Numbered from the stretch's first letter, positions 27,558 to 40,369 are shown. The stretch: DNA of 64,000 nt from Bacilli bacterium (GCA_050949315.1 JBMNFL010000001.1:826413-890412); one strand, 5' to 3'. A program made the numbers and translations. The notes: generated by a model not told the origin, from the sequence alone.

Positions 27558-27628
27558 TTTAGAAAAACAAAATATTACATCATACTAAGTTGTTGACATA
27601 AATCTCAAAACCACATATCTTAACTCCA

Positions 27629-27666
27629 CCCCGTGCTTGTAGTAACAGGCACGGGGTAATTTTTAT
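27629..27666 (+). terminator. Strong intrinsic terminator at the end of the low-GC block
   Basis: CCCCGTGC-12 nt loop-GCACGGGG followed by TAATTTTTA. Confidence 0.7.
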
Positions 27667-27756
27667 GCAAACGATAGATCCAAACTGGGCCACGGAAAAC
27701 GATGGGTGCATGACATACAACAAAGTGACACCGACACCAACGGATAGAGTACAATA

Positions 27757-29065
27757 AAGTTCGCAATTTCGAGAAGGTATAGAAAAGCCATTGGGACTCC
27801 TTTAAAATGAATGGTGTCAAGACATTCAAAAAGGAGTTGGTCCCAATGACTCAAGGAAAGAATAACACAGATCTTACGGAATTGCTACTGAAATGTATGG
27901 CGGAGCCCGACCCGATGCTCAGTATGCTGGAATGGCTCTGCGCTCAACTGATGGAGGCGGAGGTTTCCGGCCTTGTGGGGGCGGAAAAGAATGCGCACAA
28001 TCCGTCTCGAAGTGACTACCGCTGCGGATATCGTCCCCGGAGGCTGGATACTCGCGTAGGGACGATGTATCTCATGGTGCCAAAGCTGCGCAGCCATGGA
28101 TATATCCCGTTCTTTGTCACTGAACGCAAACGCAGCGAGGCGGCGCTGGTACAGGTTATTCAGGAGGCATTCGTGCAGGGCGTGTCCACACGGAAGATGG
28201 AAAAGTTGGCTCACAGTCTGGGGATAGAGAACCTCTCCCGCAGTCAGGTCAGTGAGATGACAAAAGGGCTCAATGAACAGGTACAGGAATTTCGCAACCG
28301 TTCTCTGACGGATACTCGTTATCCTGTCATTTGGACGGATGCCCTGTACGAAAAAGTCCGTATGGATGGCCGTGTCGTCAGCATGGCGGTGATGGTTGTC
28401 TGCGGCGTCAACGAGCAAGGGCACAGGGACATTCTCGCCGTGGAGCCGATGCTGGACGAATCCAAAGAGAGCTATTCCCAGTTGTTTCAAAGTCTTTTGG
28501 ATCGCGGCTTGAAAACACCGCTGCTGGTGGTTTCCGATGCGAACAAAGGGCTGATTGCCGCCATCCGAGAAAGTTTTCCCGGCGCATCCTGGCAACGCTG
28601 CAAAGTGCATTTCATGCGAAATATTCTGGCCCATATACCGCAGAAAGAAAAAGAATCCTTTGCGGTCCAACTGAAAGAAATCTGGCTGGCGCCTTCCGTC
28701 CAATTAGCGCGACAGCGCGCAAAACAGTTGTCGGAGCAATATGGGAAGCGGTTTCCCAAAGCAATCGAGCTTCTGGAAGACGGGCTGGAGGACTCACTGG
28801 CTTTCTATGCATTCCCCGAGCTTGATGCCCGTAAAATCTCATCGACCAATATGCTGGAACGGCTGAACAAGGAAATCCGGCGCAGAACCAACGTCGTCGG
28901 GATATTCCCAAACAAAGATTCCTATCTGCGGTTGGTTACAACATATCTCATGGAATACGCTGAAGACTGGTCCGTTTCCAGAGCATATTTGAATCCCAAA
29001 TCGATTCAGACACTTCTGCTAAGCGCAGCTTAATTCATTTCGTGGAGTCCCCAAATTGCGAACTT
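27757..29065 (+). mobile_element. IS256-family insertion sequence (~1.3 kb)
   Basis: 13-bp terminal inverted repeats AAGTTCGCAATTT (27757-27769) / AAATTGCGAACTT (29053-29065). Each end also has a GGGACTCC / GGAGTCCC sub-terminal repeat. A single transposase ORF lies inside. Confidence 0.7.
27846..29033 (+). CDS. IS256-family (mutator-type) transposase
   Basis: Typical IS256 transposase sequence (MTQGKNNTDLTELL...DANKGLIAAI...WQRCKVHFMRN...). ATG 27846 after an AAGGAG RBS. Confidence 0.85.
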   Translation: MTQGKNNTDLTELLLKCMAEPDPMLSMLEWLCAQLMEAEVSGLVGAEKNAHNPSRSDYRCGYRPRRLDTRVGTMYLMVPKLRSHGYIPFFVTERKRSEAALVQVIQEAFVQGVSTRKMEKLAHSLGIENLSRSQVSEMTKGLNEQVQEFRNRSLTDTRYPVIWTDALYEKVRMDGRVVSMAVMVVCGVNEQGHRDILAVEPMLDESKESYSQLFQSLLDRGLKTPLLVVSDANKGLIAAIRESFPGASWQRCKVHFMRNILAHIPQKEKESFAVQLKEIWLAPSVQLARQRAKQLSEQYGKRFPKAIELLEDGLEDSLAFYAFPELDARKISSTNMLERLNKEIRRRTNVVGIFPNKDSYLRLVTTYLMEYAEDWSVSRAYLNPKSIQTLLLSAA

Positions 29066-29097
29066 CTCTTGACATAGCCCACCAACGTTTGCCCATA

Positions 29098-29147
29098 AAT
29101 CGTTTTCTTGATACAGGAATCGTTTTCACATAGGCATAATCGTTTTC
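29098..29147. repeat. Three direct 10-bp repeats AATCGTTTTC at exact 20-bp periodicity, just outside the IS right end
   Basis: Copies at 29098, 29118 and 29138. Confidence 0.6.
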
Positions 29148-29158
29148 TTATACAAAAA

Positions 29159-29215
29159 CCGCTTAAGATCATAGGTGCAGTAACATGCATTCTAATAGTC
29201 TTAAGCGGCTTTTTT
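29159..29215. terminator. Bidirectional terminator-like hairpin (CCGCTTAAG...CTTAAGCGG, 32-nt loop) with T-runs on both strands
   Basis: 9-bp perfect stem followed by CTTTTTTATT. Confidence 0.5.
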
Positions 29216-29319
29216 ATTTATTTTAACCCTGAGCTCATCAGGCAGATTTGAAATACCTTGGAACAAAGTTGTATAATTTCAAACGTTCGTTGAATAAAAC
29301 AACAGTAAGGGTTAGGACA

Positions 29320-29413
29320 CCATCGCCTCCGTTGGCACGATAGCATCAGCTTGATGTCGGGTATGTATTTTTCATTTTTTCCGTTCTCGGGAACAGGTCA
29401 ATAATAGGGTTTG
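29320..29413. repeat. ~90-bp direct repeat, copy A (ends with the iteron CCGTTCTCGGGAACAGGTCAAT)
   Basis: About 88% identical to 30208-30307. It contains one copy of the 22-bp iteron unit. Confidence 0.6.
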
Positions 29414-29594
29414 AGTCTCGCCGCCTCCGTTGTGTTTCCTGCACTACTTTGATACAATGCACCATTTTCTTCTGTCGGCGAGCTTTCGTTAACGAGCAGG
29501 GTATCGTTAACGAGCACGTAGGATGAAAGAGCTGTCGTATCAGAGCACTCCATGTCTGTCCGAAAATTTTAGTTTTTTTCCCATGTTGAGTAAA

Positions 29595-29897
29595 TCACGC
29601 ATCATTATTTATGATTGCCTCTAGCTGAGGTAAGCTCCCACAAAGATCTGGGTCATAGTGTTGGTAAATCAATCTCGTAATCTGGGAAGGTTCTATTCCC
29701 GTTCTTAAAATTTTCAGCATGACAGTGCTGAAATCATCACGGTTCCCACCGTCAATTAAAGCAGCTTCATCTCCCTCAATAATTAGATAGGGATTGCAGT
29801 GAAGACCTCTGTTTTCATCAGAGTAACCGACCCAGTAAACACCCTCGGCAATATCTACCGGTTCTTTTTCTAAAGATTCCATTTTAATTTTCACGGT
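29595..29897 (-). pseudogene. N-terminal fragment (99 codons) of a flavodiiron protein (metallo-beta-lactamase-fold FprA/ROO-like)
   Basis: GTG start with an AGGAGG RBS. VYWVGYSDENRGLHCNPYLIIEGDEAALIDGG is the FDP N-terminal MBL motif. The ORF stops after 99 aa, whereas full-length FDPs are ~400 aa. Confidence 0.55.
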
Positions 29898-29950
29898 TTA
29901 TTCCTCCTTGTTGGCAATATAACTTTTCATATCTTCTATAACTAAAGCAT

Positions 29951-30079
29951 CCAACCTGACCACACAACCTCAACTTTTTCAAAAAACATCTAAATCGACC
30001 ACTCGCGAACCCATGTTATCCAAACTGACCACTCGTCAAACACCGACATCTAAATCGCTCTGTCACGTTCAAAATCATG
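29951..30079. repeat. Two degenerate tandem ~65-bp units (CCAAmCTGACCAC...ACATCTAAATCG...)
   Basis: Unit 1 at 29951-30019 and unit 2 at 30020-30079 share CCAA(C/A)CTGACCAC and ACATCTAAATCG cores. Confidence 0.5.
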
Positions 30080-30207
30080 CCTTTGGACTTGTTCCCACGA
30101 ACCGATATTTTCACAAATTTTACACATTGTATTTTAACTCTCAAACCTCGAAAAGCCCAATATTACTGGACTTTTGACACACTCACTTCTCAACCCTTGA
30201 CATCAAT

Positions 30208-30307
30208 ACCACCGTCTCAACGTGGAACGAGAGCATCAGGTTGATGTCTGGTATGTATTCTTCGTTTTGTCCGTTCTCGGGAACAGGTCAATAGTGGTTT
30301 TTATGGG
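30208..30307. repeat. ~90-bp direct repeat, copy B
   Basis: Aligns with 29320-29413 at an 888-890 bp offset. Confidence 0.6.
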
Positions 30308-30366
30308 TACTCTCTGTTCAAGGGAACAGGTCAATGGTTTTTATCCGTTCGGGGGAACAAGTCGAT
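30271..30366. repeat. Three 22-bp iteron-like direct repeats (CCGTTCTCGGGAACAGGTCAAT / CTGTTCAAGGGAACAGGTCAAT / CCGTTCGGGGGAACAAGTCGAT)
   Basis: Starts at 30271, 30314 and 30345. A fourth copy sits in repeat A at 29381. Confidence 0.6.
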
Positions 30367-30757
30367 ACATGGGGTTTAATTCCTGTCATCTCCGGTGGCA
30401 AAGGTACTATCTATTAATAAAATGCACCGCTCAAATCAAATCGTTATAAGATGCACCCCTTTTGCACACCCTATTTTCAGCCGCCCTGATGTTTGTTATC
30501 CGTTATTCGCAGAATACCTCAATGGTACGCAGTTGAAAATCAATATTTTATAAACTTAGCTCCTGGAACGCCACAAATGCTGCATTTTTCCGGGACTAAT
30601 TTTTCTATATTTCCGCAGACAGGGCAGAGGAAGTAGAAAACTTCTTCTGTATGTCAAAGACTCTCTAATGCATCCTGATAAAGTCCGGCATGAACCTCTT
30701 CCGCTTTCAAAGCAAAGGTAAAGGAGAAAATTCCTACAATAGACTATAACACTTCAG

Positions 30758-33700
30758 TCAAACCTCCTCGCTTTTTTCTATTATTTGAACAAACAGTTCG
30801 GCGATTTGCGGGTCGAACTGTGTTCCTGATCCATTCTTAATAACATCAAGAGCAGCCTGTTTGCGATCCTTTAAGGGAAAATCGCCTCTGTTAAGTACGC
30901 GGTCGTAGGTTTCAGTAACAGCAATGATCCTTGACAACAGAGGAATTTGCTCTCCCTTAAGCCCTCTCGGATATCCCTTTCCATCCCATCTTTCATGATG
31001 GCCATAAACGTATTCTGCCAGGTCGAGTGTGTCATCAAAAAGATTCAAAATTCGGTATCCAACCACAGAATGCTGCTGCATTTTTTCACGCTCATCAGCC
31101 GATAAAGTCTCCTTATTTAGGACAGCTTCATCCAGCACAATTTTACCGATATCGTGTAGATAACCCGCCCTGCTTAATTTGCTGACTTCAGTATCAGGGA
31201 GATGCAGAGCCGTGCCTAATTTTGAGCACAACTCACTTACATCAACCGAGTGCTGTTTTTCTTTTGGATTCCTCGTGTATAAAGTCTCAATAATCGTGCC
31301 AATAATTTCTTTATTGATGGACTTACGATTCATCGTTTTATCCATATACATGGCGTTTTCTGCGTTTGCCATGATCTCATCAAGCAGCTGGTCTGGGCTT
31401 CGTTTCGTATCAAGACCAAGAGCAATACTGCTCTTGATGGCCTTAACGCGGGCGTCGGCAAACCCGGATTTAATCCTGGCAAGAATTTTCTCAGCATTTT
31501 CTTTGGTTGTGTTGGGTAGAAGAATGATGAATTCGTCACCTCCGACGCGAGCGACTACATCATTCTGCCTGCAAACCTGCAGCAGTATTTCAGACGATTT
31601 TTTAATTAGCTCGTCGCCAGCTCTATGTCCAAATATATCATTGGTCATCTTCAAACCATTGATATCAGCAAAGATGACAGATAGCGGAAGATTGTCCGGA
31701 TTGTCAATTTTTGCTCGGTTGTCCTCAAAGCATTTTCTGTTGTGCAGCCCGGCCAAGGTATCGTAACAGTTCAGATACTGGATCTCAGCTTCTTTCTGTT
31801 TTCGTTCGCTTATATCCATAAAAGTTACAACAGCGCCGGTTATTTCACCGTTTTTATTCTGGGGATATGAATAATATTCCACGTCAAAAGAAGTACCGTC
31901 AGCACGCCAGAATACTTCATCCTCTACGTGGGAACCTTCCCCTTTGATAAATGCTTTGAAAATACTGCAGTCATCAATGGGGAAGGGGTTACCATCTCTG
32001 CGGGTGTGATGAATCTGCCGGTGCATATTCTTTCCTAGTAATTCTTCCTGATCACGATATCCCAGCATTTCAATACAGCTTTTATTACAGAAAGTGCAGT
32101 TGCCATTCAAGTCAATGCCGTAAATGGCCTCTGCGGCTGTATCCAATATCAACTGAAGTTCGTCTTTACTCTCCTCCAATTGAAAATTCGCAATATGAAG
32201 CTCCTGGGTACGTTTCTGCACGTTAAACTCCAGGTTTTCTATAAACGATTGCATTTTGTCGGCAACCTTATTAAAGCTGTTTGATATCTGGCCAATTTCG
32301 TCATTTCGGATAATATCAACTCTTTTAGACAGGTTGCCGGAAGATAATTCATCAGATACCTGCAACAGGTTTTTCATTGGCCTTTTGCTTTTCAAAAACT
32401 CGAGCGCGTCTTCTTCATTAAGCGGCTTGCTGAACAGATATCCCTGTATCCTATCACAGTTGTGTTCTTGCAAATACTGTAACTGGCATTCGTGTTCGAC
32501 CCCTTCAGCAATTGTGCAGTGCCCAAGCTTATGTGACATCGAAATAATATCGCTTGTTATTGCTTTACTCAGGTCTGCATCTAACAACTTATCAATAAAA
32601 TACTTGTCAATTTTTAAGCAGTCGACGCTCAGCTCTTTTTCTCTGGCTAGGGAGGAATAACCAGTTCCAAAGTCATCTATAGCTATGTGAAGTCCGGTTT
32701 CCCTCAGTTTCTCGATAATGCTATTAACGGCTTCATAATCGGAGGCAAAGACCGATTCGGTAATCTCAATGCCAATATTCCGGGGATTAACCTGCATCTC
32801 GCTCATTAATTCAAACAGCCTGCTTGTAAAATCAGGTTTTAATAGCTGAATAGCAGAAATATTGATTGAAACGCCGACTTCATCATATCCACTCGCATTA
32901 AGCTTATTAAGGAAATGAAACGCGTTGACAATCACTTTTTCACCAATCGGTATAATGAGCTTTGTCTCTTCGGCAATCGGTATAAATTCAACCGGTGACA
33001 CCAGTCCGTGTTTTTCTGTTTTTAACCGTGCTAGCGCTTCAAACCCACAAACAGCATTTGTCTGTAGCTCAACAATCGGTTGGTATTGCAAAAACAACTC
33101 ATCATTAGTGCTTTCAAGAACTACGCCCGTAAGTGCTTCCCGGATGTCTCTTTCGCGGTTTATCTCAGCCTCCAGTTCCTCATTATAAAAACAAGCCTCA
33201 AAGTCTTTTTGTGAAACAGCAATAGATCTTTCTGACGCAATCAAGAGCTTTCTTAAGAGTAAATCCACATCGATTTCATCAACGTCCTGCTCAATTTCGA
33301 ATATCCCAATCCCGCCGCCTATTCGTTCAGTTGCAAATAAGGCTTCTAATGCTTCTGCTATGATATCGCTAAATTCAACCAGGTCGTTCTTGTCTTTGTA
33401 ATCAACAAGATAGAAGACAAACCGATTTTCATAGGTTTGGAACAGTAAGCGGGTATCGGAGCAATGCTGACTCAGTGTTTCAGCAGCCATTTTTATAAGG
33501 TTCTGTGTATAGTGAAACCCATAATTAGCGGTTAATAACTCAACTGTACTCAAATTGATACTGATGACTGCTCTTTTTAATCCATCCTTTTTCTTGATAT
33601 CATTATTCAGAAGCGCATCCAAATAATCACGATTATACAAGCCTGTCCATTTGTCATGCTCATTTATGTATCTGAGATGGTTCTCCATCTCTTTTCTGTC

Positions 33701-35263
33701 TGAGATATCGAGGATTATTCCTTCCAGCGCTTCAACTTCACCCTCATCATTATATATTCCTTGTCCCATCTCAAGAACCCATTTTCTTTTGCCGCTTGCA
33801 GTGATAATCTCATACTCATATCTAAACGGCTGCCCTTTTTCAAGGATTCGCTTCAATTCGTTCCACAATGCTTCGCGGTATTCAGGGGAAATGAGATCAT
33901 TATACGATAGGTCTCTATTGTTTAACAAGCTTTCGGATTTGTATCCAGTCAGATCATAGCAACCTTTTGAAACGTACTGCATCGTCCAGTCATGATCATA
34001 TTTGCACTTGTAAGCCAAGCCCGGTAGGTGAGACATTAGAATAGATTCTCTCCGTTCGTTCTCCCTCAATGCAAACTCAAAAAGTTTGCGTGGCGTAATG
34101 TCACGGGAGGAGCCTTGAAATCCCACCGCATTACCATTATCATCGCGGATGAAAGAAATACTCAACTCCAGCCAGATAACGGTGCCGTCTGCTTTATAAT
34201 GTTCAACTTCGATCGTCCGCGACCTGTTTTTATCAATTTCGGGATCTTTTTCTTTTTCTAACTCTTCATAAAAAATCGATTGGATTTTATGCAACGTTTG
34301 TGCTGGAAATTTCTCTTCCATCTTCCTATTCATATGCTCTTCGATGGATTCTCCAAGGAGTTTTTCAACAGAGGGACTTACATACGTCGTTTTCAGGGTT
34401 AAATCCATCTGCCAGACAACGTCTGACATATTTTCTGTGATGCTTCGATATTTCTTTTCGCTTTCAATCAGCGCAGCCATAGCGGCTTTTTGGTTGGTAA
34501 TGTCCTGAATAAGACACATATGATTAAGCTTGTTTTCCGCTAAAGGAGCAATAGACGCAACGACCATATATACCCATGCAACCGATCCATCGGGTTTAAC
34601 ATATCGCTTCTCCATTGAATAGCTTTTAATTTCACCGGCCTGCAGTTTATTAAAATTTTCTATATCTTCATCCAGGTCGTCCGGATATGTAATCTTTGCC
34701 CAGCCTAAATTAATGAGCTCTTCTTTTGTTCTGCCTGTAATTTGTTCATATGCAGAGTTTATTTTTATAATATCCTTGTCAGAGTGTTTAGGATCACGGC
34801 TGTGAGAAATTGCTATGCCAATAGGGGCCTCTTCAAAAAGCCTATCAAAGGCAAGAGTGTGTTCGTCAATTTTCTGCGATAGTGCTTGCTGAGCTCGCAT
34901 CAGTGCTACATGAACATTGATCCTGGCTTTCAATGAATCCATATGAAGTGGCTTTCGGATATAGTCTACGGCACCAAGCTTTAAGCCCTTGATTTCATTA
35001 TCCAATTCATCATAATTAGTCAATATTATGGTGCGCAGCTTCCGAAACCGCTCATCCCGATTCAATGATTCGAGAACCTGAAAACCATTCATATTAGGCA
35101 TATTGAGATCGAGTATGAGCAAGTTGATTTCATCATTCTCCGCAAGTACACGCAAAGCCTCTATACCGTCGCAAACAGTCAACACGGTATACTCACTGAG
35201 CATGTTTTTGATGATCAATCTGTCCGACGCCGAGTCGTCAGCTACTAAAATTTTAATTAGCAT
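30758..35263 (-). CDS. Giant multidomain c-di-GMP signalling protein: REC - 3xPAS - degenerate GGDEF - EAL - HAMP-like - PAS - GGDEF - HD-GYP
   Basis: Domain-by-domain:
- N-terminal receiver (ILVADDSASDRLI...LILDLNMPNMNG);
- three PAS segments;
- a GGDEF fold with YENRF in place of GGDEF;
- EAL (QPIVEL...GFEALAR...DDFGTGYSS...QGYLFSKP);
- a linker, then a fourth PAS;
- an intact GGDEF (ARVGGDEFIILL);
- HD-GYP (HDIGKI...HHERWDGKGYP).
ATG 35263 has an AAGGAGG RBS. The listed ORF start 35290 adds 9 unsupported codons. Confidence 0.8.
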   Translation of the reverse strand: MLIKILVADDSASDRLIIKNMLSEYTVLTVCDGIEALRVLAENDEINLLILDLNMPNMNGFQVLESLNRDERFRKLRTIILTNYDELDNEIKGLKLGAVDYIRKPLHMDSLKARINVHVALMRAQQALSQKIDEHTLAFDRLFEEAPIGIAISHSRDPKHSDKDIIKINSAYEQITGRTKEELINLGWAKITYPDDLDEDIENFNKLQAGEIKSYSMEKRYVKPDGSVAWVYMVVASIAPLAENKLNHMCLIQDITNQKAAMAALIESEKKYRSITENMSDVVWQMDLTLKTTYVSPSVEKLLGESIEEHMNRKMEEKFPAQTLHKIQSIFYEELEKEKDPEIDKNRSRTIEVEHYKADGTVIWLELSISFIRDDNGNAVGFQGSSRDITPRKLFEFALRENERRESILMSHLPGLAYKCKYDHDWTMQYVSKGCYDLTGYKSESLLNNRDLSYNDLISPEYREALWNELKRILEKGQPFRYEYEIITASGKRKWVLEMGQGIYNDEGEVEALEGIILDISDRKEMENHLRYINEHDKWTGLYNRDYLDALLNNDIKKKDGLKRAVISINLSTVELLTANYGFHYTQNLIKMAAETLSQHCSDTRLLFQTYENRFVFYLVDYKDKNDLVEFSDIIAEALEALFATERIGGGIGIFEIEQDVDEIDVDLLLRKLLIASERSIAVSQKDFEACFYNEELEAEINRERDIREALTGVVLESTNDELFLQYQPIVELQTNAVCGFEALARLKTEKHGLVSPVEFIPIAEETKLIIPIGEKVIVNAFHFLNKLNASGYDEVGVSINISAIQLLKPDFTSRLFELMSEMQVNPRNIGIEITESVFASDYEAVNSIIEKLRETGLHIAIDDFGTGYSSLAREKELSVDCLKIDKYFIDKLLDADLSKAITSDIISMSHKLGHCTIAEGVEHECQLQYLQEHNCDRIQGYLFSKPLNEEDALEFLKSKRPMKNLLQVSDELSSGNLSKRVDIIRNDEIGQISNSFNKVADKMQSFIENLEFNVQKRTQELHIANFQLEESKDELQLILDTAAEAIYGIDLNGNCTFCNKSCIEMLGYRDQEELLGKNMHRQIHHTRRDGNPFPIDDCSIFKAFIKGEGSHVEDEVFWRADGTSFDVEYYSYPQNKNGEITGAVVTFMDISERKQKEAEIQYLNCYDTLAGLHNRKCFEDNRAKIDNPDNLPLSVIFADINGLKMTNDIFGHRAGDELIKKSSEILLQVCRQNDVVARVGGDEFIILLPNTTKENAEKILARIKSGFADARVKAIKSSIALGLDTKRSPDQLLDEIMANAENAMYMDKTMNRKSINKEIIGTIIETLYTRNPKEKQHSVDVSELCSKLGTALHLPDTEVSKLSRAGYLHDIGKIVLDEAVLNKETLSADEREKMQQHSVVGYRILNLFDDTLDLAEYVYGHHERWDGKGYPRGLKGEQIPLLSRIIAVTETYDRVLNRGDFPLKDRKQAALDVIKNGSGTQFDPQIAELFVQIIEKSEEV

Positions 35264-35312
35264 TATGAATCCTCCTTCTTTAACCCACACCCACTCCAGG
35301 CTTTTTTTGACT

Positions 35313-35876
35313 TTATTTTAGTTCCTCAAGCAGTTTCCCAAGTAATTTAGAAAACCTGTCTTGTAATGGCACTATTTCATCTTCCTTTTCTTCATTAAAA
35401 GCTTTCTGTAATAACGCAGCTACAGCCTGCAGTGATTTAGCACCGATACTTCCGGAACTGCTCTTAACCTTATGTACGATTTGTGTAGCTTCAGTGTATC
35501 TTTTTTCACGTACTGCCGCTTCAAGCTTTTCCAAAGTATCTTGATTCTCGTTGCGGTATTCAATTAGCACCTGATTATACAATTCTTCGTTGCCGCCCAT
35601 ATTTTTAAAGCCTAGCTGCCGGTCAAGGACAGCTGTATCCGGTTCTATATTAGGTTCATTTTCAAGGATAATATCTTTTATGGTTTGAATAAAGTGATCG
35701 GGATTAATGGGCTTACTGATGTAATGAAATATTCCGCTTTGCTCGCACTTGTCCCGAACACCTAAAATCACATCCGCTGTCATTGCTATAATAGGGACTT
35801 GGCTTGAAATCGATCGGATATTCTCCGCCGCTTCATAGCCGTTCATGACAGGCATGTGCAAATCCATCAATATCAA
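35313..35876 (-). CDS. Truncated receiver (REC) domain fused to an Hpt phosphotransfer domain; likely N-terminally disrupted
   Basis: MILMDLHMPVMNG...IIAMTADV is the middle and C-terminal part of a receiver; it lacks the beta1 DD pocket. C-terminal Hpt motif HKVKSSSGSIGA. The REC reading frame is closed by a TGA upstream. Confidence 0.5.
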   Translation of the reverse strand: MILMDLHMPVMNGYEAAENIRSISSQVPIIAMTADVILGVRDKCEQSGIFHYISKPINPDHFIQTIKDIILENEPNIEPDTAVLDRQLGFKNMGGNEELYNQVLIEYRNENQDTLEKLEAAVREKRYTEATQIVHKVKSSSGSIGAKSLQAVAALLQKAFNEEKEDEIVPLQDRFSKLLGKLLEELK

Positions 35877-36061
35877 ATCGATGATGTCACGATGCTTCTG
35901 ATATAGCTCAACAGCTTCCTTTCCGTCGTTGGCAATATGAACCTGTTGACCTCATCGCGCTTCATTCGCATGATACGGTAGATGCCGAAATCAAGGTCAG
36001 ACTGGTCAAACTGAAACATCTCGCGGAGGATGCTCATTAATTTTTTCTGGTTATCAGTCAT
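35873..36061 (-). CDS. Short ORF (62 aa), apparently the N-terminal remnant of a disrupted gene; start overlaps the XRE gene stop (ATGA)
   Basis: MTDNQKKLMSILREMFQFDQSDLDFGIYRIM... runs 40 codons and then into the out-of-frame REC fragment. Confidence 0.35.
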   Translation of the reverse strand: MTDNQKKLMSILREMFQFDQSDLDFGIYRIMRMKRDEVNRFILPTTERKLLSYIRSIVTSSI

Positions 36062-36303
36062 TTTGTGGTACCTTCTTTCCCGCTGCCCGTGGCAGCGGCA
36101 TCATCGGGAATTGTTTCCATGATGTCTGTTATATCGCACTGAAGAACATCGCATATCTTTAACAGAACAGCGGTTGTAACATTCTCGTCTTTTCCGAGCT
36201 TCGCAAGTGAGGACGAGCTGATACCCGCTGCTTGTCGTAGCTCAGTTTTCTTCATGTTTCTGTCAATTAACAACTTCCACAGCTTCTTATAACTCATCTT
36301 CAT
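36058..36303 (-). CDS. XRE-family helix-turn-helix transcriptional regulator
   Basis: HTH_XRE signature (KTELRQAAGISSSSLAKLGKDENVTTAVLLKICDVLQC). Confidence 0.75.
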   Translation of the reverse strand: MKMSYKKLWKLLIDRNMKKTELRQAAGISSSSLAKLGKDENVTTAVLLKICDVLQCDITDIMETIPDDAAATGSGKEGTTK

Positions 36304-37945
36304 TGTCTGTCACCTCTTTATTCCATGATTCGCCGTACAGTTCGCAATTACCATCCGACAATTTCAAAACAGTATTACCCGTCAGAATGCGCTGCGTGTC
36401 TGGTTTATACGCAGCCTGTTTATCAAAGGCGATAAACACCTGTTTTGTACTTTGAACGTATATTTTCATAATGCCGTCGACAGCACCATCGCCGATGTTT
36501 TTCAAAATTAACGAATCGTGCGCTATGGCCGGTAGTGCAGTCAGGTTGAGTATTGCCAAGTCATAGATGACCATGCCTTTGTAATTCGAGCCTGTGCCGG
36601 TATCATCCGGCGTTTCAAACCTGTAACTGTTGTACTCGTTGAATGTGAGGCGCGGCGCTTTCCGCACGTCTGCAAAGAGCGAATCGTTATATTCCTTCAT
36701 TCTATCATTGATAGCACGTTCAATCTCATCAAGGATGCTTTCTATCGCGTGTTTCAACATTTCGTCAGCTTTTTTCTTTGCATCCTGCAGCTCGGTCAAT
36801 GTAAGGTACGCTTCATTCTGTGCTTTCAGCGCATCAATATGACCTTTAATTTCCGAATGCATATCCAAAAATTCTTTGGACAGGTTGCCGACAAAACCGA
36901 GCTGGTTGATTTCTGTCTGCACTGACTGGATTTGTTCCAGCAAAGCAGCAATCTCCAACTCGACCGATTGGCGCTCGCTTTTGAACTGTTCATCGAGTAT
37001 GGTCGCCAGCTTCTGATGGTATTTTTCTACTTCATACAGCTTCCGAATGTTCACATCAGGGAAAAACTCCTGTAAAGCAGATAAATCTGCTTCTGTCGGA
37101 TATAGACCATACGCGAGGCTAATATCCAGGAGGCTTACTCGGCGGCGTTTTGCCTGCAAATCGGTTTCGAGACGCAGCTTACTGCCCTGAAGCTGTGATT
37201 TTAAACGACTCTTTTCAATGTCTGCTTCGTTATGGCCTTCCACCTGTTCATCAGTCAGATTATCAAGCTGAACCTGCAGGCTGTGTATTTGCGCCAGATT
37301 TTCGTCATATTTTGTTTTGCCTCCAACGAGGTCAGGGACAAAGCGATACTTTCGGGCTTCTCGGAAAATCGACAGCCGCTTTTTCTGCTCCTCAAGATTG
37401 CCGTTGAAGGCTTCAATGTCCTTATATCTGTCAAACAGGCGGACAAGAATTTCGATGGATTTTTGCATTCCTTCTCCGGGCAAGCCCTTGAGAGGTTTGC
37501 GCTCATCGGTATTTTCTTTTCCGTATATCCTGAAGAAGCTGCTCATTGTCTCGCGGAAGGATAGCCCTGCGAAATCAATATGGTATTTTTCTTTCAACCA
37601 GTCGGCAAACTGCTGCTTCGTCCATACAACTCCTGTCAGCACATATCCCTCTGAGCATACATGAATATCGGTGGGCGATTCGGTACTGCGGGCAAAGTAG
37701 TACGGCGTTCCATCAAATTCAAATGTAAAGAAGATAGTGTGATTGCCAATGTGCTTCACACCATCACTGACAAGGTACGAGTTGCCACCAAAAGCAAAAT
37801 CAATGGCAAGCATGGCAGAGGATTTTCCGATTGAGTTTTCGCCATCCTCTTTTCCGAGAACGACGTTCAATCCCTCTTTGAAGCGGATTGGAGGTCGTTC
37901 TTTTCCTTTTTCCTTAAAGACCGGCGAGGTGATTTCTATAAGCAT
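36287..37945 (-). CDS. P-loop ATPase with long central coiled coil (ABC/SMC-like; LmuB/ABC-three-component ATPase-like)
   Basis: N-terminal Walker A (GKEDGENSIGKSS) in an SMC/RecF-type head. About 250 aa of heptad-rich coiled coil. C-terminal segment with acidic Walker-B-like hhhhD (MVIYDLAIL) and AHDS. RBS GAAAGGAGAGG. Confidence 0.65.
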   Translation of the reverse strand: MLIEITSPVFKEKGKERPPIRFKEGLNVVLGKEDGENSIGKSSAMLAIDFAFGGNSYLVSDGVKHIGNHTIFFTFEFDGTPYYFARSTESPTDIHVCSEGYVLTGVVWTKQQFADWLKEKYHIDFAGLSFRETMSSFFRIYGKENTDERKPLKGLPGEGMQKSIEILVRLFDRYKDIEAFNGNLEEQKKRLSIFREARKYRFVPDLVGGKTKYDENLAQIHSLQVQLDNLTDEQVEGHNEADIEKSRLKSQLQGSKLRLETDLQAKRRRVSLLDISLAYGLYPTEADLSALQEFFPDVNIRKLYEVEKYHQKLATILDEQFKSERQSVELEIAALLEQIQSVQTEINQLGFVGNLSKEFLDMHSEIKGHIDALKAQNEAYLTLTELQDAKKKADEMLKHAIESILDEIERAINDRMKEYNDSLFADVRKAPRLTFNEYNSYRFETPDDTGTGSNYKGMVIYDLAILNLTALPAIAHDSLILKNIGDGAVDGIMKIYVQSTKQVFIAFDKQAAYKPDTQRILTGNTVLKLSDGNCELYGESWNKEVTDNEDEL

Positions 37946-38112
37946 GAATATACCTCTCCTTTCTCATTGATGTCTATTGCGTTAAGCGCATATAGGCAGT
38001 CCATAACCGACAAAAAATCCGTTGCGTCGGAAAGCGAAGGCTTTATCCGAAGATAAAGGTCTTTCACTGCGATTGGATTATCTTGTACCTCTTTGAGCAC
38101 CGTTGGAATCAT
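37936..38112 (-). CDS. Small protein (58 aa) between the HNH-like and ATPase genes (possible middle component)
   Basis: ATG at 38112 (minus). The stop overlaps the ATPase start. No clear RBS, so the call is tentative. The longer listed 106-aa ORF overlaps the upstream gene. Confidence 0.3.
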   Translation of the reverse strand: MIPTVLKEVQDNPIAVKDLYLRIKPSLSDATDFLSVMDCLYALNAIDINEKGEVYSCL

Positions 38113-38143
38113 CGCCAAGGTGCTGTTTTTATATGAATACAGC

Positions 38144-39313
38144 TTATTCGGTAATTGCATCGAACACCTCACAGCTCTGCACGAAGTACGAAACCACAAT
38201 CTGGCAGAAAATTGCGTCCTGTAGCGTAACACGATGTATTTTATCTGCGATTTCATTGAAGATTTCGAGATGCGGTTTGTTTGCCTTTTTTAGTTTCTTA
38301 TACAATGCGTGAATCTGGTCTTGGATTTCATCGTAGTCAATTTCGCCGCTTTTATCCAGATTTATCATTATTTCTTTTATGCGTATGAAGTATGTGGTGA
38401 CGTAGTTGGTTACCGCATTGTAAAGCACCATGTCCTGAGACGGGCTAAGTTTCTGCTTGACTTCCTTTGGTTCAAAGGAAGCATCAGACAATTCCTTTTC
38501 CCCGAGTTTCCGTATTCTTTTGATTACGCCGACAATGCCCTTTTCCAAAGGCAGGTCATCAAGAAGACGGATGCTTTGTTTATGCGTAGACAACACCGTT
38601 TTTATTTCCTTTAGTTCAGCCATCAACTTCTTGCTGTCATCAAGGAGATATGTGGCATAGCACTGCGGGCACATTGCCATGAGGTTTTCGGGCGTAGTCG
38701 CTTTAGATTTATCTATCAAGCTAACTTCAAATGTATGAATGGCTTTTCCGTTTTTTGAAATAGTTAGCTGCCTCCCGCACCCCGGGAATGGACAGCACCC
38801 ATCTGTTTCTGCAAGTAAATAATCGCCGTACTTTTTCTTCAAATCGGATGCAAGAATCTGTTGCTGCTGTTTCTGGAGTTCATCCTGCGGAATCAGCCCA
38901 GCAGACTCCTGAATAATTTGTTCCAGCCATTCGGTGACTTTTTCTGCAACATTATCTGCATTTATGGTCGGTTCATAACCGACTAAATCCTCTGCAAATA
39001 AAGCCCTTGAAGCGGGGCTTCGCTTGCTTATGCTCCGTGTAAGTATTTTAGGTGTTAGATGATACACGATATTTCCCGCTAAATTCTTGGATAAACCTCG
39101 TTTTACATAGCTGCGAATGGTGTTATCGCTGAGTTTTGCGGAAGGGTCTTTACCCTTTGCCCAGTCAGCCTCAGATACAGTCGTAATCTTTGCCATTAAT
39201 TCGCGGAAAAAATACGGCACATCATCACCGTCGGCTAAATGCTTTTTCATAATTGGGAAAAGTGTTTTGAATTCCACGTCGGCTCGACACTCCTTTACTG
39301 AGATTTGCACCAC
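38144..39313 (-). CDS. HNH-nuclease-motif protein (putative effector of the ATPase-linked system)
   Basis: CCPFPGCGRQL...IHTFEV...ENLMAMCPQCY matches the CxxC...H...N...CxxC(H/Y) HNH zinc-finger layout. The rest is alpha-helical. GTG start is uncertain. Confidence 0.55.
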   Translation of the reverse strand: MVQISVKECRADVEFKTLFPIMKKHLADGDDVPYFFRELMAKITTVSEADWAKGKDPSAKLSDNTIRSYVKRGLSKNLAGNIVYHLTPKILTRSISKRSPASRALFAEDLVGYEPTINADNVAEKVTEWLEQIIQESAGLIPQDELQKQQQQILASDLKKKYGDYLLAETDGCCPFPGCGRQLTISKNGKAIHTFEVSLIDKSKATTPENLMAMCPQCYATYLLDDSKKLMAELKEIKTVLSTHKQSIRLLDDLPLEKGIVGVIKRIRKLGEKELSDASFEPKEVKQKLSPSQDMVLYNAVTNYVTTYFIRIKEIMINLDKSGEIDYDEIQDQIHALYKKLKKANKPHLEIFNEIADKIHRVTLQDAIFCQIVVSYFVQSCEVFDAITE

Positions 39314-39331
39314 GGTGCACTATGGTGCACC
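39314..39331. promoter_or_regulatory. Tandem GGTGCAC palindromes (GGTGCAC-tat-GGTGCAC) immediately upstream of the minus-strand operon start
   Basis: Two palindromic GTGCAC cores 10 bp apart. A related CACCATcaaATGGTG inverted repeat lies at 39500-39514. Confidence 0.4.
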
Positions 39332-39416
39332 AAACCATCCCCAGATTTCGAAGCCCCATTTTATATAATGAGAGCAGGTTAGGAACGGAAGGCGCTCCTG
39401 AGGAAACCCCAAATAT

Positions 39417-39445: not shown

Positions 39446-39705
39446 ATATTATGTTTGAAAAAAGGATTAAATATTTCCTTGCGCATTCATTCCATAGCCC
39501 ACCATCAAATGGTGCGTTCCCTGATCTGGAACGGCTCAACGCTATGCGACGGTAGAACTTAATACACTCAGCTGACTATTGAGCAGGAAGCTGCATTCCG
39601 AAACGGAGCAATCTGTGAAGGACTGCGGTATGGTATCTTATTGCCATTTTTCAGCCAGCTGCTGCAGACCTCCGTTTCGAGACAACGAAAACGGAGGTCA
39701 TTTTA

Positions 39706-40092
39706 ATGAAAATTCAATGGAACTTTGCAGACGGCACGAAATCCGAGGTCGAGGTCAATGAGGAGCTTGGGGAATTTATCACCGCATCGCGGCGCGAGGA
39801 GGACAACCTTAGTCGCAAAGAACGGTATCACTGTTATTCGTTGGATGCCATTCTCTTTGAAGGGAAGGAATACGGGGACAACCACACTCCCGAAACAGAA
39901 GTGGAGACAGCGGAAAGAAACAAGCGCCTTTATGCTGCAATGAAAACGCTGACGGCGGTACAGCAAAAGCGTTTGCTTATGCTGGCGGACGGGCTTTCCT
40001 TGCGGGAAATCGCACGAGTCGAGGGCGTAGATCATCGTGCTGTCCGCGAGTCTATCGACAGCGCGAAGAAAAAAATCAAAAAAGTGTTCTGA
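39706..40092 (+). CDS. Sigma-70 region-4-like HTH regulatory protein (phage/ICE-type small sigma-like factor)
   Basis: C-terminal LTAVQQKRLLMLADGLSLREIARVEGVDHRAVRESIDSAKKKIKK is a sigma70_r4/LuxR-type HTH. RBS GGAGGT. A hairpin overlaps the RBS. Confidence 0.65.
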   Translation: MKIQWNFADGTKSEVEVNEELGEFITASRREEDNLSRKERYHCYSLDAILFEGKEYGDNHTPETEVETAERNKRLYAAMKTLTAVQQKRLLMLADGLSLREIARVEGVDHRAVRESIDSAKKKIKKVF

Positions 40093-40171
40093 GTACCTCC
40101 CCAAAACACCCTGCATTTCTCCGTATGCCGAGGGACACACAAAAACGTCCCTCGGAAAGGACGGATGAAAG

Positions 40172-40369
40172 ATGAAGCACGATTTAAAGATCAGCGTTTC
40201 CAAAAAGCCCGCCGAAGACGGCGTCGTCAGATGCCAGCGTGTCACCATGCGGGAACGATTGCTCCGTTACCTGTTCGGCGAGAAGCGCCGGGTGATGGTC
40301 ATAGTTCCCGGTGACACCGTAGAGAGCGTTTCCATCACGGAATTGCCCGGAGGTGACGAGCACCGATGA
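40172..40369 (+). CDS. Hypothetical small phage protein
   Basis: Intact ORF in the co-directional phage module. Confidence 0.4.
   Translation: MKHDLKISVSKKPAEDGVVRCQRVTMRERLLRYLFGEKRRVMVIVPGDTVESVSITELPGGDEHR

What the first reader, a model, noticed from the sequence alone, without database searches (positions are those of the whole stretch)
27600..39400. Abrupt compositional transitions (about 30% to 45% to 57% GC) with an IS256 element at the first boundary: nested foreign DNA or a chimeric contig
The AT-rich host block ends at a strong terminator (27629-27666). Within 100 bp an IS256-family element begins. The next ~10 kb is GC-intermediate. From ~39.3 kb the phage block is GC-rich with different codon usage. 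No integrase, attachment-site duplication or tRNA is visible at either boundary. A 57%-GC siphovirus integrated in a ~31%-GC host would be unusual.
Basis: seen in the sequence. Interest (0 to 1): 0.5.

Follow-up and report, generated by a model that had tools for sequence, protein, structure and literature searches.

The report
Mosaic prophage inserted in low-GC bacterium
The GC jumps are real and mark one roughly 44-kb integrated phage with a lower-GC cargo arm and an IS256 element at its left edge, inserted in a conserved operon of an uncultured low-GC Bacilli bacterium; it is not an assembly error, and it is an ordinary kind of element with an unusually large phage-host GC gap.

Summary
The GC steps are real: 36.3% to 42.1% to 53.9%, with change points at about 27.9 and 39.5 kb and a third at about 72.9 kb, beyond the window. 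The contig is not chimeric. In about 30 related genomes the left-flank and right-flank genes are neighbours in one operon. The IS256 element (27743-29079) has an 8-bp target duplication. Several JGI, Logan and ENA assemblies and a 1.01-Mb NCBI MAG contig carry the same joints.

The "missing" integrase is a tandem pair of large serine recombinases about 6 kb past the window end. A 19-nt perfect repeat occurs only twice, at 27727 (split by the IS) and at about 73214.

The 39.5-kb step lies inside the phage. Relatives keep the layout HTH gene, variable defence cargo (here Lamassu/ABC-3C), DUF2800 RNA, early genes, and they show the same internal GC step. The 29.6-35.9 kb part is c-di-GMP signalling DNA of chromosomal origin, also attached to this phage arm in a Lactonifactor-like contig.

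Not resolved: the exact element ends and how the element crossed from Clostridia to Bacilli.

Verdict: a new member of known kinds, of moderate interest.

The parts
27628..27666 (+). Intrinsic terminator that ends the host gene w259 (26778-27557); the last unambiguous host feature on the left
   Evidence: 13-bp stem with 8 G-C pairs and a T-run. Host identity of the flank.
27727..27742 (+). Left copy of the 19-nt boundary repeat GACACCGACACCAACGTTT: its first 16 nt here, its last 3 nt at 29088-29090, split by the IS. This is the candidate attL core.
   Evidence: With the IS and one duplication copy removed, the 19-mer occurs exactly twice in 81.5 kb (27727 and ext 73214), within a 56-nt alignment at about 80% identity (score 50; shuffle maximum 36). 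It is absent from 2.4 Mb of fetched loci and from IMG/VR.
27735..27742 (.). Left copy of the 8-bp target-site duplication CACCAACG of the IS
27743..29079 (+). IS256-family insertion sequence, 1337 bp, 50.8% GC; transposase gene at 27807-29033
   Evidence: PF00872, E 3e-115; the 27-nt termini match at 17 of 27 positions, including a 13-nt perfect block; the 395-aa form of the transposase (MGI6378212) is identical to proteins of Caproiciproducens galactitolivorans and Thermocaproicibacter melissae.
29080..29087 (.). Right copy of the 8-bp target-site duplication CACCAACG
29088..29318 (.). AT-rich end segment (32-36% GC) with three AATCGTTTTC words, a bidirectional hairpin (29150-29217) and a strong promoter-like site (29248-29277). 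It is either the phage attP arm or host intergenic DNA.
29319..29412 (.). Repeat R1, about 80% identical to 30208-30300; carries the motif CCGTTCTCGGGAACAGGTCAATA. Its left edge is the alternative inner left end of the element.
   Evidence: local alignment score 113; GC rises to 49% here.
29429..29598 (.). Segment X, with a discrete end at 29598 (...GAGTAAATCAC). It is 100% identical to a segment in L179 that lies beside a serine-recombinase remnant, with a 78% copy on the remnant's other side.
29595..29894 (-). ODP'/metallo-beta-lactamase gene fragment: the first 99 of 274 codons, cut at 29598
   Evidence: PF19583; 100% identical to residues 1-99 of L178's 274-aa ODP; that ODP equals the Lactonifactor sp. 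BIOML-A4 protein.
30208..30380 (.). Repeat R1' plus further copies of the CCGTTC..GGGAACAGGTCAAT motif, upstream of ODP'
30758..35290 (-). Fusion gene for c-di-GMP turnover with domains REC-PAS-GGDEF-EAL-HAMP-PAS-GGDEF-HD-GYP (1501-1510 aa). It arose from two adjacent chromosomal genes by a 1.1-kb deletion at about 32382.
   Evidence: domains; L175 and L176: a 972-aa and a 917-aa gene, 84-86% nt identity; the same fusion in L178 and L179.
35313..35876 (-). REC'-Hpt gene lacking the N-terminal part of the receiver domain
   Evidence: the receiver match starts at profile position 45.
35912..35936 (.). Joint 1: 23 nt of filler between the REC'-Hpt homology (ends at 35912) and the phage-arm homology (starts at 35936). 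L178 is identical here.
35873..36061 (-). 62-aa ORF whose first 45 or so codons match the start of a 353-aa gene of the Hespellia stercorisuis prophage
36058..36303 (-). HTH_26 (XRE-type) regulator, conserved in related phages at this position; candidate prophage repressor
   Evidence: (55-100% identity in 15 of the 17 related loci tabulated).
36287..37945 (-). LmuB-like ABC/SMC ATPase of the Lamassu (ABC-3C) system
   Evidence: PF10088; PADLOC LmuB, 2.7e-12; exact protein in Lactonifactor sp. BIOML-A3.
37936..38256 (-). Lamassu/ABC-3C middle component (MC7)
   Evidence: PF20292, 2e-24.
38144..39313 (-). LmuA-like effector with the ABC-3C C-terminal domain CTD11
   Evidence: PF20277, 9.7e-39; LmuA, 3.8e-12.
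39502..39661 (+). DUF2800 RNA motif heading the early operon; it sits at the second GC step
   Evidence: 113.4 bits; gathering score 60.2.
39706..48915 (+). Early and replication module (54.8% GC over 39706-48145): sigma-like factor, HNH, SNF2 helicase, Pam3 gp33-like protein, family A DNA polymerase, nucleoside 2-deoxyribosyltransferase, NrS-1-type primase-polymerase fused to a methyltransferase
   Evidence: (88-93% nt identity to many IMG/VR contigs).
48941..64000 (+). Late module up to the window end: amidoligase, large terminase 50954-52555, portal 52570-53865, ClpP-type protease, HK97-type capsid 54599-55786, connectors, major tail 57853-58716, tape measure 59313-61895. The prophage continues about 9 kb beyond the window to the two serine recombinases.

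Best explanation
Window positions from about 27.73 kb to the window end, plus a further 9.2 kb on the same contigs, form one integrated mobile element of about 44 kb, or 45.5 kb with the IS. It is a temperate, siphovirus-like phage of a lineage whose close relatives lie in Clostridia. It sits in a conserved, c-di-GMP-riboswitch-led TasA/SipW-like operon of an uncultured low-GC Bacilli bacterium.

The three GC tiers reflect the element's mosaic make-up. They do not mark three integration events.
- The phage core and late genes are 48-55% GC.
- Upstream of the early operon is a leftward-transcribed accessory arm. It holds a swappable cargo position, here a Lamassu/ABC-3C defence system next to a conserved HTH regulator, at 44% GC.
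- The arm also carries a 6.3-kb piece of chromosomal c-di-GMP signalling DNA at 41% GC: ODP', a fused GGDEF-EAL-HD-GYP gene and REC'-Hpt. This piece is bounded by two discrete recombination joints, at 29598 and at 35912-35936.

Inference: integration was carried out by the tandem pair of large serine recombinases at the far right end. The crossover was most likely in or near a 19-nt sequence now present at both edges.

Shown: an IS256 copy later transposed into the left copy of that sequence, with an 8-bp target duplication. Inference: if that sequence is the att core, the prophage can no longer excise precisely. In the lysogen the leftward arm would express the defence system and the c-di-GMP enzymes, and the DUF2800 RNA heads the silent lytic operon.
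For: Real insertion, not an assembly artefact.
- In about 30 GTDB relatives the gene order is w255, w259, r254, r549, r564, then usually r203 and r847, with 0.2-1 kb where this genome has 45 kb.
- The right flank returns to 37% GC. The two flanks share their tetranucleotide signature (r = 0.83).
- The IS has an 8-bp target duplication.
- The same joints occur in JGI 3300060804, 3300053716, 3300062814 and 3300060803, in Logan runs, in ENA contigs at 96.5-96.8% identity, and on a 1.01-Mb NCBI MAG contig with consecutive accessions MGI6378211 to MGI6378233.

One element.
- The 19-nt core within a 56-nt repeat occurs only at the two edges. No counterpart exists at 39.4 kb.
- The middle block correlates with the phage (r = 0.84) and not with the host (r = 0.34-0.40). 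The GGDEF/Hpt sub-block gives r_phage 0.69-0.82 and r_host 0.39-0.48, whereas 5-kb host control pieces give r_own of at least 0.63.

The 39.5-kb step is internal to the phage.
- Related loci keep the order HTH_26, variable cargo, DUF2800 RNA, early genes, with other defence genes left of the HTH gene.
- Seven relatives measured show the same step: 43-47% cargo arm against 55-57% replication module.
- The HTH-Lamassu cassette is 100% identical at nucleotide level to the Hespellia stercorisuis prophage, while the neighbouring replication genes are about 91% identical.

Origin of the c-di-GMP segment.

Recombinases: Resolvase, Recombinase and Zn_ribbon_recom domains with the YARVS serine motif. 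Tandem pairs are the rule in 27 related viral contigs. A 16-bp sequence shared by attP and attB is documented for the SPbeta serine integrase (PMC5499854).
Against: - No significant dyad symmetry surrounds the 19-nt core in the reconstructed attP, attB, attL or attR.
- The 230-250 bp on the inner side of each core copy is AT-rich, like host intergenic DNA. The true ends could therefore be about 29319 and about 72960, with the repeat being host sequence.
- No empty site, attP form or IS-free attL was recovered. The metagenome scan was lost to a tool error. Contigs of a sister strain stop inside tRNA-Pro.
- In L178 the c-di-GMP segment runs on into ordinary chromosomal genes, so its status as stable phage cargo, rather than co-transferred donor flank, is an inference.
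- No recombination directionality factor, repressor function or phage activity was tested.
- The samples holding identical sequence probably come from one community.
Confidence: 0.72

Rival explanations
1. Same element, different ends. The phage proper runs from about 29319 to about 72960 (43.6 kb), with attP about 150 bp downstream of the second recombinase. The two copies of the 19-nt/56-nt sequence are host intergenic DNA that happened to lie about 230 and 250 bp on either side of the integration point. The IS256 then sits in ordinary host intergenic DNA, not in an att site.
For: The segments 29091-29318 (32-36% GC) and 72961-73213 (22-33% GC) resemble host intergenic DNA (25-38%) and differ from phage or arm intergenic DNA (40-57%). 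GC rises sharply at 29319, where repeat R1 begins. The GC change point on the right is at 72,900. The distance from the recombinase stop to the end of X would then be 434 bp, close to the 487 bp seen in L179. The core shows no dyad symmetry.
Against: The only two copies of a 19-mer in 81.5 kb would have to flank the insertion at nearly symmetric distances by chance. attP regions of many phages are AT-rich. No short shared core was identified at 29319 and 72960.
Confidence: 0.3
2. Two independent events. An older genomic island (29.1-39.4 kb, 42% GC) was already in the host, and the 54%-GC phage later integrated beside it at about 39.4 kb.
For: There is an abrupt GC and strand switch at 39.3-39.7 kb. 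The c-di-GMP segment is chromosomal in other genomes.
Against: The HTH gene, the cargo, the DUF2800 RNA and the early genes are contiguous in more than ten related viral contigs and in the Hespellia prophage. Relatives show the same GC step. There is no att-like repeat at 39.4 kb. The recombinase-end repeat pairs with 27.73 kb, not with 39.4 kb. The block has the phage's oligonucleotide signature. L178 carries block and phage together in a different organism.
Confidence: 0.05
3. Chimeric contig. The assembler joined a low-GC genome to DNA of a higher-GC Clostridia genome through a shared IS256 repeat.
For: The IS is multi-copy in these communities: the exact transposase is on 165 contigs and is identical to copies in Caproiciproducens. 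Some assemblies break inside it (L003, L171).
Against: An 8-bp target duplication flanks the IS, and the interrupted sequence matches the far end of the insert. The insert is followed by the other half of the same host operon. Contigs from several samples, including one with indel errors typical of long-read assembly, and a 1.01-Mb MAG contig span everything.
Confidence: 0.02
4. The element is as described, but it did not arrive by infection and recombinase-mediated lysogeny of this host. It came in on another vehicle (conjugative plasmid or ICE, transformation, or generalised transduction) and was fixed by recombination at a short homology. The phage may never have been able to replicate in this Bacilli host.
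For: The closest relatives (93-96.5% nt) are in Lachnospiraceae (Hespellia, Lactonifactor-like), whereas the host's pyrG groups with Izemoplasma and Acholeplasmatales. GC3 is 0.63 against 0.29. The core lacks the architecture of a serine-integrase site. A 2026 preprint proposes conjugative megaplasmids as carriers of closely related prophages between Bacilli and Clostridia (PMC12934698).
Against: The intact recombinase pair sits exactly at one edge. No plasmid or ICE genes are seen in the insert or in 10 kb of either flank. The insertion lies cleanly within an intergenic or 5' gene region.
Confidence: 0.2

Closest known systems
Temperate Bacillota siphoviruses that integrate with large serine recombinases (SPbeta/SprA, A118, TP901-1) and elements with paired serine recombinases (SCCmec CcrAB; clostridial Tn4451/Tn5397-type modules)
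   Same: The recombinases at the extreme end of the element have Resolvase, Recombinase and Zn-ribbon domains. The insertion is into or next to a host gene. No long att duplication and no tRNA target are present. A shared sequence of 15-20 bp at both ends has precedents: 16 bp for SPbeta (PMC5499854), and the direct repeats of SCCmec (from my own knowledge).
   Different: There are two tandem recombinases rather than one. The dyad symmetry expected of attP was not detected. The target is a TasA/SipW-like operon of a Mollicutes-related Bacilli lineage. The recombinase module has no close relative in IMG/VR (63% identity or less).
Lamassu / ABC-3C three-component defence systems (LmuA-LmuC-LmuB) carried in prophage cargo hotspots
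   Same: A three-gene overlapping operon: an effector with CTD11, the MC7 middle component, and a DUF2326 ABC/SMC ATPase. It sits at a position where related phages carry other ABC-3C types or other genes.
   Different: Function was not tested. The N-terminal effector domain was not identified beyond a PADLOC LmuA match. The cassette, with its neighbouring HTH gene, is 100% identical at nucleotide level between phages whose backbones differ by about 9%.
IS256 family insertion sequences
   Same: A Mutator-type DDE transposase, 1337 bp, imperfect terminal inverted repeats and an 8-bp target duplication.
   Different: Nothing unusual about the IS itself. It is notable only for lying inside the candidate att core and for being protein-identical to copies in Caproiciproducens and Thermocaproicibacter.
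Specialised-transducing phages (lambda gal/bio type) and 'grounded' prophages
   Same: Chromosomal DNA of another organism (the c-di-GMP genes and a truncated ODP gene) lies next to the phage end, bounded by sharp joints that truncate genes on both sides. An IS in the boundary may lock the prophage in place.
   Different: No loss of phage DNA from the opposite end was shown. The same segment also occurs beside serine-recombinase remnants in non-identical contexts (L174, L179). Recombination within accessory arms explains the data about as well as aberrant excision does.
Closely related prophages shared between distant Bacillota classes (PMC12934698)
   Same: A prophage 93-96.5% identical over 11-12 kb is found in Lachnospiraceae contexts and in a Bacilli MAG.
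   Different: No megaplasmid context is seen here; the insertion is chromosomal, on a 1.01-Mb contig. The GC gap to the host is about 16-18 points.

Membership tests
IS256 family | Single Mutator/IS256-type DDE transposase | tested here: met
   PF00872, E 3.2e-115, covering 360 of 379 profile positions.
IS256 family | Length about 1.2-1.5 kb with imperfect terminal inverted repeats | tested here: met
   1337 bp. The termini match at 17 of 27 positions, including a 13-nt perfect block.
IS256 family | 8-9 bp target-site duplication | tested here: met
   CACCAACG at 27735-27742 and 29080-29087.
Lamassu / ABC-3C defence system | ABC/SMC-type ATPase (LmuB) | tested here: met
   PF10088, 4e-15; PADLOC LmuB, 2.7e-12.
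Lamassu / ABC-3C defence system | Small middle component (LmuC / MC family) | tested here: met
   PF20292 MC7, 2e-24.
Lamassu / ABC-3C defence system | Effector protein with an ABC-3C C-terminal domain (LmuA) | tested here: met
   PF20277 CTD11, 9.7e-39; PADLOC LmuA, 3.8e-12 on residues 13-151.
Lamassu / ABC-3C defence system | Protection against phage or plasmid | not testable with these tools
   Needs expression and challenge experiments.
Prophage integrated by a large serine recombinase | Recombinase with Resolvase, Recombinase and Zn-ribbon domains and a catalytic serine | tested here: met
   Precomputed Pfam PF00239, PF07508 and PF13408 for both genes. The YARVS motif is present in both translations. 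PDB matches include 3g13 and SprA 9dxh.
Prophage integrated by a large serine recombinase | Recombinase gene next to one prophage end | tested here: met
   The second recombinase stops 407 bp before the right copy of the 19-nt core and about 150 bp before the GC drop.
Prophage integrated by a large serine recombinase | attP and attB of about 40-60 bp with imperfect dyad symmetry around a short crossover | tested here: not met
   The best dyad is 10-12 of 22 positions, at or below the 95th percentile of shuffles (13-14), in all four reconstructions. The site itself is therefore not established.
Prophage integrated by a large serine recombinase | Empty attB in related strains, or an attP junction in a free form | tested here: inconclusive
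   The core is absent from IMG/VR. Sister-strain contigs end in tRNA-Pro. At gene-order level the site is empty in about 30 distant relatives.
Tailed phage with HK97-type head and long non-contractile tail | Large terminase, portal, protease, HK97-fold capsid, connectors, major tail protein and tape measure | tested here: met
   No sheath family appears among the hits listed; morphology is inferred.
DUF2800 RNA (Rfam RF02960) | Score above the family's gathering threshold over the whole model | tested here: met
   113.4 bits against 60.2, model positions 1-158 of 158.
Specialised transduction (aberrant excision product) | Donor chromosomal DNA contiguous with a phage end, with compensating loss of phage DNA and a hybrid att | tested here: inconclusive
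   Donor-type DNA and sharp joints are present. Loss at the other end and a hybrid att were not demonstrated, and other histories fit.

The most novel reading that the evidence does not exclude
A temperate phage of a Clostridia lineage has lysogenised a Mollicutes-related Bacilli host across a class boundary and a 16-18-point GC gap. It used its paired serine recombinases at a 19-nt site in a c-di-GMP-controlled matrix-protein operon. It brought with it a Lamassu defence system and a transduced, rearranged c-di-GMP signalling module. An IS256 that landed in the attL core then locked it in place. This would be a natural, datable example of cross-class specialised transduction followed by prophage grounding.
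Probability: 0.25. Interest if true: 0.6.

Novelty: new member of a known kind. Interest (0 to 1): 0.4.

Why it matters
The practical result is that the contig can be trusted. The GC steps should be read as the internal mosaic of one prophage, so binning or prophage-calling tools that cut at 39.5 kb would split the element and lose its defence cargo.

Biologically the locus is a compact worked example of four things:
- Phage accessory arms have a lower GC than the phage core across a whole lineage.
- A Lamassu cassette has been exchanged between phages whose backbones differ by 9%, while itself staying identical at nucleotide level.
- Chromosomal signalling genes have ended up inside a phage-bounded element.
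- Nearly the same prophage occurs in Lachnospiraceae and in a deep-branching Bacilli lineage. This bears on the open question of how lysogenic host range can exceed infective host range.

None of these phenomena is new in kind.

Tried and rejected
I worked around it through a protein search plus contig look-ups.
- A search of PLSDB plasmids for the IS found nothing.
- A third cluster of similar words at 29.95-30.07 kb, first suspected to be an extra att site, is not significantly similar to either end, so I dropped it.
- No att-like similarity links the 39.3-39.7 kb or 35.9-36.05 kb intergenic regions to the recombinase end.
- The 19-nt core has no match in IMG/VR.
- The dyad-symmetry test of the reconstructed att sites was negative. 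By eye, the X|ODP' joint at 29598 matches at about 6 of 25 positions, so it does not look like an att site either.
- Rfam at permissive thresholds found no family for repeat R1, segment X or the right end.
- Exact look-ups of the ODP' fragment found nothing.
- The c-di-GMP fusion protein has no relative in IMG/VR beyond a receiver-domain match.
- The recombinase has no close relative in IMG/VR (63% identity or less), so attP could not be read from a free phage.
- The attempt to obtain an empty site from a 97%-identical sister strain failed, because all its contigs stop inside tRNA-Pro(CGG) at 24638 and 24652.
- The history of the 6.3-kb segment (aberrant excision or recombination within accessory arms) could not be decided from L174, L178 and L179.

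Full report
**Observation.** The compositional tiers are real.
- GC is 36.3% over 1-27726 (1-kb windows 36.3 +/- 2.5%), 50.8% in the IS, 42.1% over 28.9-39.5 kb and 53.9% over 39.5-55.95 kb.
- Unsupervised segmentation places change points at 27,900, 28,900 and 39,500. After I extended the sequence beyond the window it also places one at 72,900. All gains exceed the maximum of 500 shuffles.
- GC3 is 0.29 in host genes, 0.42-0.49 in the middle block and 0.63 in phage genes.
- The terminator at 27628-27666 is confirmed, as is the IS256-family element that starts 77 bp later.

**What the genes are.**
- Left of 27.7 kb are housekeeping genes (for example pyrG), two tRNA-Pro genes and a c-di-GMP-I riboswitch (25821-25894). 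The riboswitch lies ahead of two secreted TasA/camelysin-like genes, w255 and w259.
- The middle block, all on the minus strand, holds:
  - a 99-codon fragment of an ODP/metallo-beta-lactamase gene;
  - a 1501-1510-aa REC-PAS-GGDEF-EAL-HAMP-PAS-GGDEF-HD-GYP protein;
  - a truncated REC-Hpt gene;
  - an HTH_26 regulator;
  - a three-gene ABC-3C system (CTD11 effector, MC7, DUF2326 ATPase), which PADLOC recognises as Lamassu LmuA and LmuB.
- At 39502-39661 Rfam finds a full-length DUF2800 RNA (113 bits).
- A plus-strand phage genome follows: sigma-like factor, HNH, SNF2 helicase, family A polymerase, primase-polymerase fused to a methyltransferase, terminase, portal, protease, HK97 capsid, major tail protein and tape measure.

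**The contig is not chimeric.**
- Contigs that carry exactly the same proteins let me extend the window. The prophage continues about 9 kb further and ends with two overlapping large serine recombinases (448 and 535 aa, at window-equivalent 69.9-72.8 kb). After them GC falls back to 37%.
- The right flank encodes a truncated and a full TasA-like paralogue of w259, a SipW-like peptidase, two large conserved proteins and GGDEF-EAL proteins.
- In about 30 reference genomes of related uncultured Bacillota the left-flank and right-flank genes are adjacent: w255, w259, r254, r549, r564, usually followed by r203 and r847. The gap between them is 0.2-1 kb where this genome has 45 kb.
- The IS (27743-29079) is flanked by an 8-bp duplication, CACCAACG.
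- The first joint is spanned in at least two JGI samples. Further JGI and Logan contigs run from the host into the IS. The 39.5-kb joint is spanned in three JGI samples, in two ENA contigs at 96.5-96.8% identity and in IMG/VR contigs. The right joint is spanned in two JGI samples and one Logan run.
- An NCBI MAG labelled 'Bacilli bacterium' has consecutive protein accessions, from w259 (MGI6378211) through the IS, the c-di-GMP gene and Lamassu to the terminase and portal (MGI6378232 and MGI6378233), on a 1.01-Mb contig.
- A misjoin through the IS cannot explain the target duplication, nor the return to the other half of the same operon.

**Where the element ends.**
- With the IS and one duplication copy removed, GACACCGACACCAACGTTT occurs exactly twice in 81.5 kb, at 27727 and at window-equivalent 73214. 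It lies within a 56-nt alignment of about 80% identity (score 50; shuffle maximum 36).
- It is absent from 2.4 Mb of other fetched loci and from IMG/VR.
- The IS therefore sits inside the left copy.
- No such pairing exists for the 39.4-kb junction.
- A 16-bp sequence shared by attP and attB is known for the SPbeta serine integrase (PMC5499854). Tandem recombinase pairs are the norm in this recombinase family.
- Two caveats apply. I found no significant dyad symmetry around the core. The 230-250 bp on the inner side of each copy is AT-rich like host intergenic DNA.
- The ends could therefore be 29319 and 72960, with the repeat belonging to the host. I rate the outer ends at roughly 0.55-0.6 and the inner ends at roughly 0.3.

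**The 39.5-kb step lies inside the phage.**
- The replication module (39556-48145) is 88-93% identical to many IMG/VR contigs. In most of them homology stops on the left at 39553-39706.
- In three UViGs homology continues leftwards through the Lamassu genes. The one locus that extends that far runs to 35936; the other two contigs end at 37936.
- Across relatives the layout is conserved: an HTH_26 gene (55-100% identity), then 2-4 kb of variable cargo, then the DUF2800 RNA and the early genes. The cargo is other ABC-3C types (CTD6-MC2, or a distant CTD11 set) or unrelated genes.
- Left of the HTH gene lie more accessory genes: a type I methylase, an SNF2 helicase with DUF4391 and a methylase, a DruA-like protein, and IS21.
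- Seven relatives measured show the same internal GC step, 43-47% against 55-57%.
- The HTH-Lamassu cassette (36.0-39.5 kb) is 100% identical at nucleotide level to a prophage of Hespellia stercorisuis DSM 15480, whereas the adjoining replication genes are about 91% identical. The exact ATPase and HTH proteins also occur in Lactonifactor sp. BIOML-A3. This indicates recent cassette exchange.

**The 29.6-35.9 kb segment.**
- Its DNA (30760-35422) is 84-86% identical to a chromosomal locus with two separate genes, of 972 aa and 917 aa. Here a 1.1-kb deletion has fused them.
- An ENA contig (L178) is collinear with the window from 41019 down to 29598 at 96.5% identity. It includes the same 23-nt filler at 35912-35936. 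It then continues into a full-length ODP gene and ordinary redox genes at about 41% GC.
- L178's ODP and FMN reductase are exact matches to Lactonifactor sp. BIOML-A4 and A3 proteins.
- In the window the ODP gene is cut after codon 99. There it abuts segment X (29429-29598).
- X is 100% identical to a segment that in another contig (L179) lies between the same fusion gene and a serine-recombinase remnant. A 78% copy of X sits on the other side of that remnant.
- A third contig (L174) has a 93%-identical, truncated copy of the gene directly beside the SHOCT-recombinase end of another prophage.
- The composition-normalised tri- and tetranucleotide signature of this segment is closer to the phage (r = 0.69-0.82) than to the host (r = 0.39-0.48). 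Size-matched host pieces give r of at least 0.63 with their own genome.
- My conclusion is that the segment is chromosomal DNA of a Clostridia donor that now travels inside the phage-bounded element. Whether it was picked up by aberrant excision or by recombination among accessory arms cannot be decided from these data.

**Host and donors.**
- The named relatives of the host's pyrG are Izemoplasma, Acholeplasmatales, Anaeroplasmataceae and 'Bacilli bacterium', at 62-65% identity. Apart from a 99% sister-strain copy, the best unnamed hit is 74%. The host is therefore a deep-branching, uncultured Bacilli lineage, in agreement with the MAG label.
- The phage's close relatives are in Lachnospiraceae. 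More distant copies of the replication module are in Syntrophomonas zehnderi and Peptoclostridium acidaminophilum.
- By nucleotide similarity the late genes resemble Acutalibacteraceae, Oscillospiraceae and Ruminococcus phages, at 74-78%.
- The 395-aa form of the IS256 transposase is identical to copies in Caproiciproducens galactitolivorans and Thermocaproicibacter melissae.
- The element thus appears to have crossed from Clostridia to Bacilli. That closely related prophages occur in both classes has already been reported (PMC12934698), which limits the novelty.

**How it most likely works.**
- Shown: one inserted element with a phage core, an accessory arm and a secondary IS insertion.
- Inferred: integration by the recombinase pair at or near the 19-nt sequence.
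- Inferred: expression of the leftward arm (the HTH regulator, Lamassu and the c-di-GMP enzymes) from the prophage, while the DUF2800-led lytic operon is silent.
- Inferred: loss of precise excision, if the IS indeed splits attL.

**Verdict.** The finding is real and is now largely explained. It is a new member of known kinds: a temperate phage integrating by serine recombinases, Lamassu cargo and an IS256 element. Its uncommon features are the size of the phage-host GC gap and its cross-class distribution. Interest is moderate.

Noticed in passing
window 25821-25894 (+), with 25988-27557 and the right flank L013 4701-14226: A c-di-GMP-I riboswitch (57 bits) precedes TasA/camelysin-like genes. 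In relatives these genes are followed directly by a SipW-like peptidase, two large conserved proteins (one with DUF2357) and GGDEF-EAL proteins. The prophage splits this c-di-GMP-controlled operon and itself brings c-di-GMP-making and c-di-GMP-degrading domains. Whether that is more than coincidence is unknown.
   Followed up: partly
window 36000-39500 compared with L100 (Hespellia stercorisuis prophage): The HTH_26 plus Lamassu cassette is 99-100% identical at nucleotide level between two prophages whose adjacent replication genes are only 76-99% identical (about 91% on average). The exact proteins also occur in Lactonifactor sp. BIOML-A3. This points to very recent exchange of a defence cassette between phages.
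   Followed up: yes
window 29319-29412 and 30208-30380: A repeat of about 94 nt (80% identity) and at least four copies of the motif CCGTTCTCGGGAACAGGTCAAT(A), which contains a GTTC..GAAC palindrome. They lie upstream and downstream of the ODP fragment. No Rfam family matches. They could be operator sites or a leader.
   Followed up: partly
window 29429-29598 and L179 11867-12036, 14793-14905: Segment X, with a sharp end at 29598, is 100% identical in an unrelated ENA contig. There two copies (100% and 78%) flank a serine-recombinase remnant plus a GmrSD gene. It may be an att-type arm of a family of recombinase-borne elements.
   Followed up: partly
window 39300-39345 and 30400-30470; L179 spacer: Repeated TGCACC / GGTGCAC words (for example TTGCACCACGGTGCACTATGGTGCACCAAACC) lie in the divergent intergenic region between the Lamassu operon and the DUF2800 RNA, and again near the ODP fragment. 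They look like operators. Seen by eye only.
   Followed up: no
window 43518-49906: The phage encodes its own family A DNA polymerase, an NrS-1-type primase-polymerase fused to an N6/N4 methyltransferase, a nucleoside 2-deoxyribosyltransferase and an amidoligase. This gene set suggests autonomous replication and possibly DNA modification, and might relate to why the core stays at about 55% GC in hosts of much lower GC.
   Followed up: no
window 24606-24682 (tRNA-Pro CGG); L180, L181: Contigs of a sister strain (97% nt identity) from other sequencing runs all stop inside this tRNA gene (24638, 24652). The DNA downstream of it, the TasA-like operon and the prophage, may therefore differ between strains.
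   Followed up: partly
L013 4701-5369 (window-equivalent about 73281-73949): The first host gene after the insert (r222) is a TasA-like paralogue that lacks its signal peptide. Homology to its paralogues starts about 20 nt upstream of its ATG. The missing 5' part is not found at the left edge of the insert.
   Followed up: partly
L002, L010, L169 (JGI 3300053716, contig Ga0534105_00852, 162.6 kb): This contig spans the whole region but carries small indels that fragment several genes (terminase, portal, SNF2 helicase), as expected of a long-read assembly. If so, long reads already span all the joints.
   Followed up: no
L179 6158-6973: The 'full-length' 271-aa REC-Hpt ORF of L179 is itself a fusion. 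Its first 85 or so residues look like a GIY-YIG-type domain belonging to the neighbouring type I restriction island. It breaks at the same nucleotide (window 35912) as the joint in the window, so this point in REC-Hpt may be a recurrent recombination site.
   Followed up: partly
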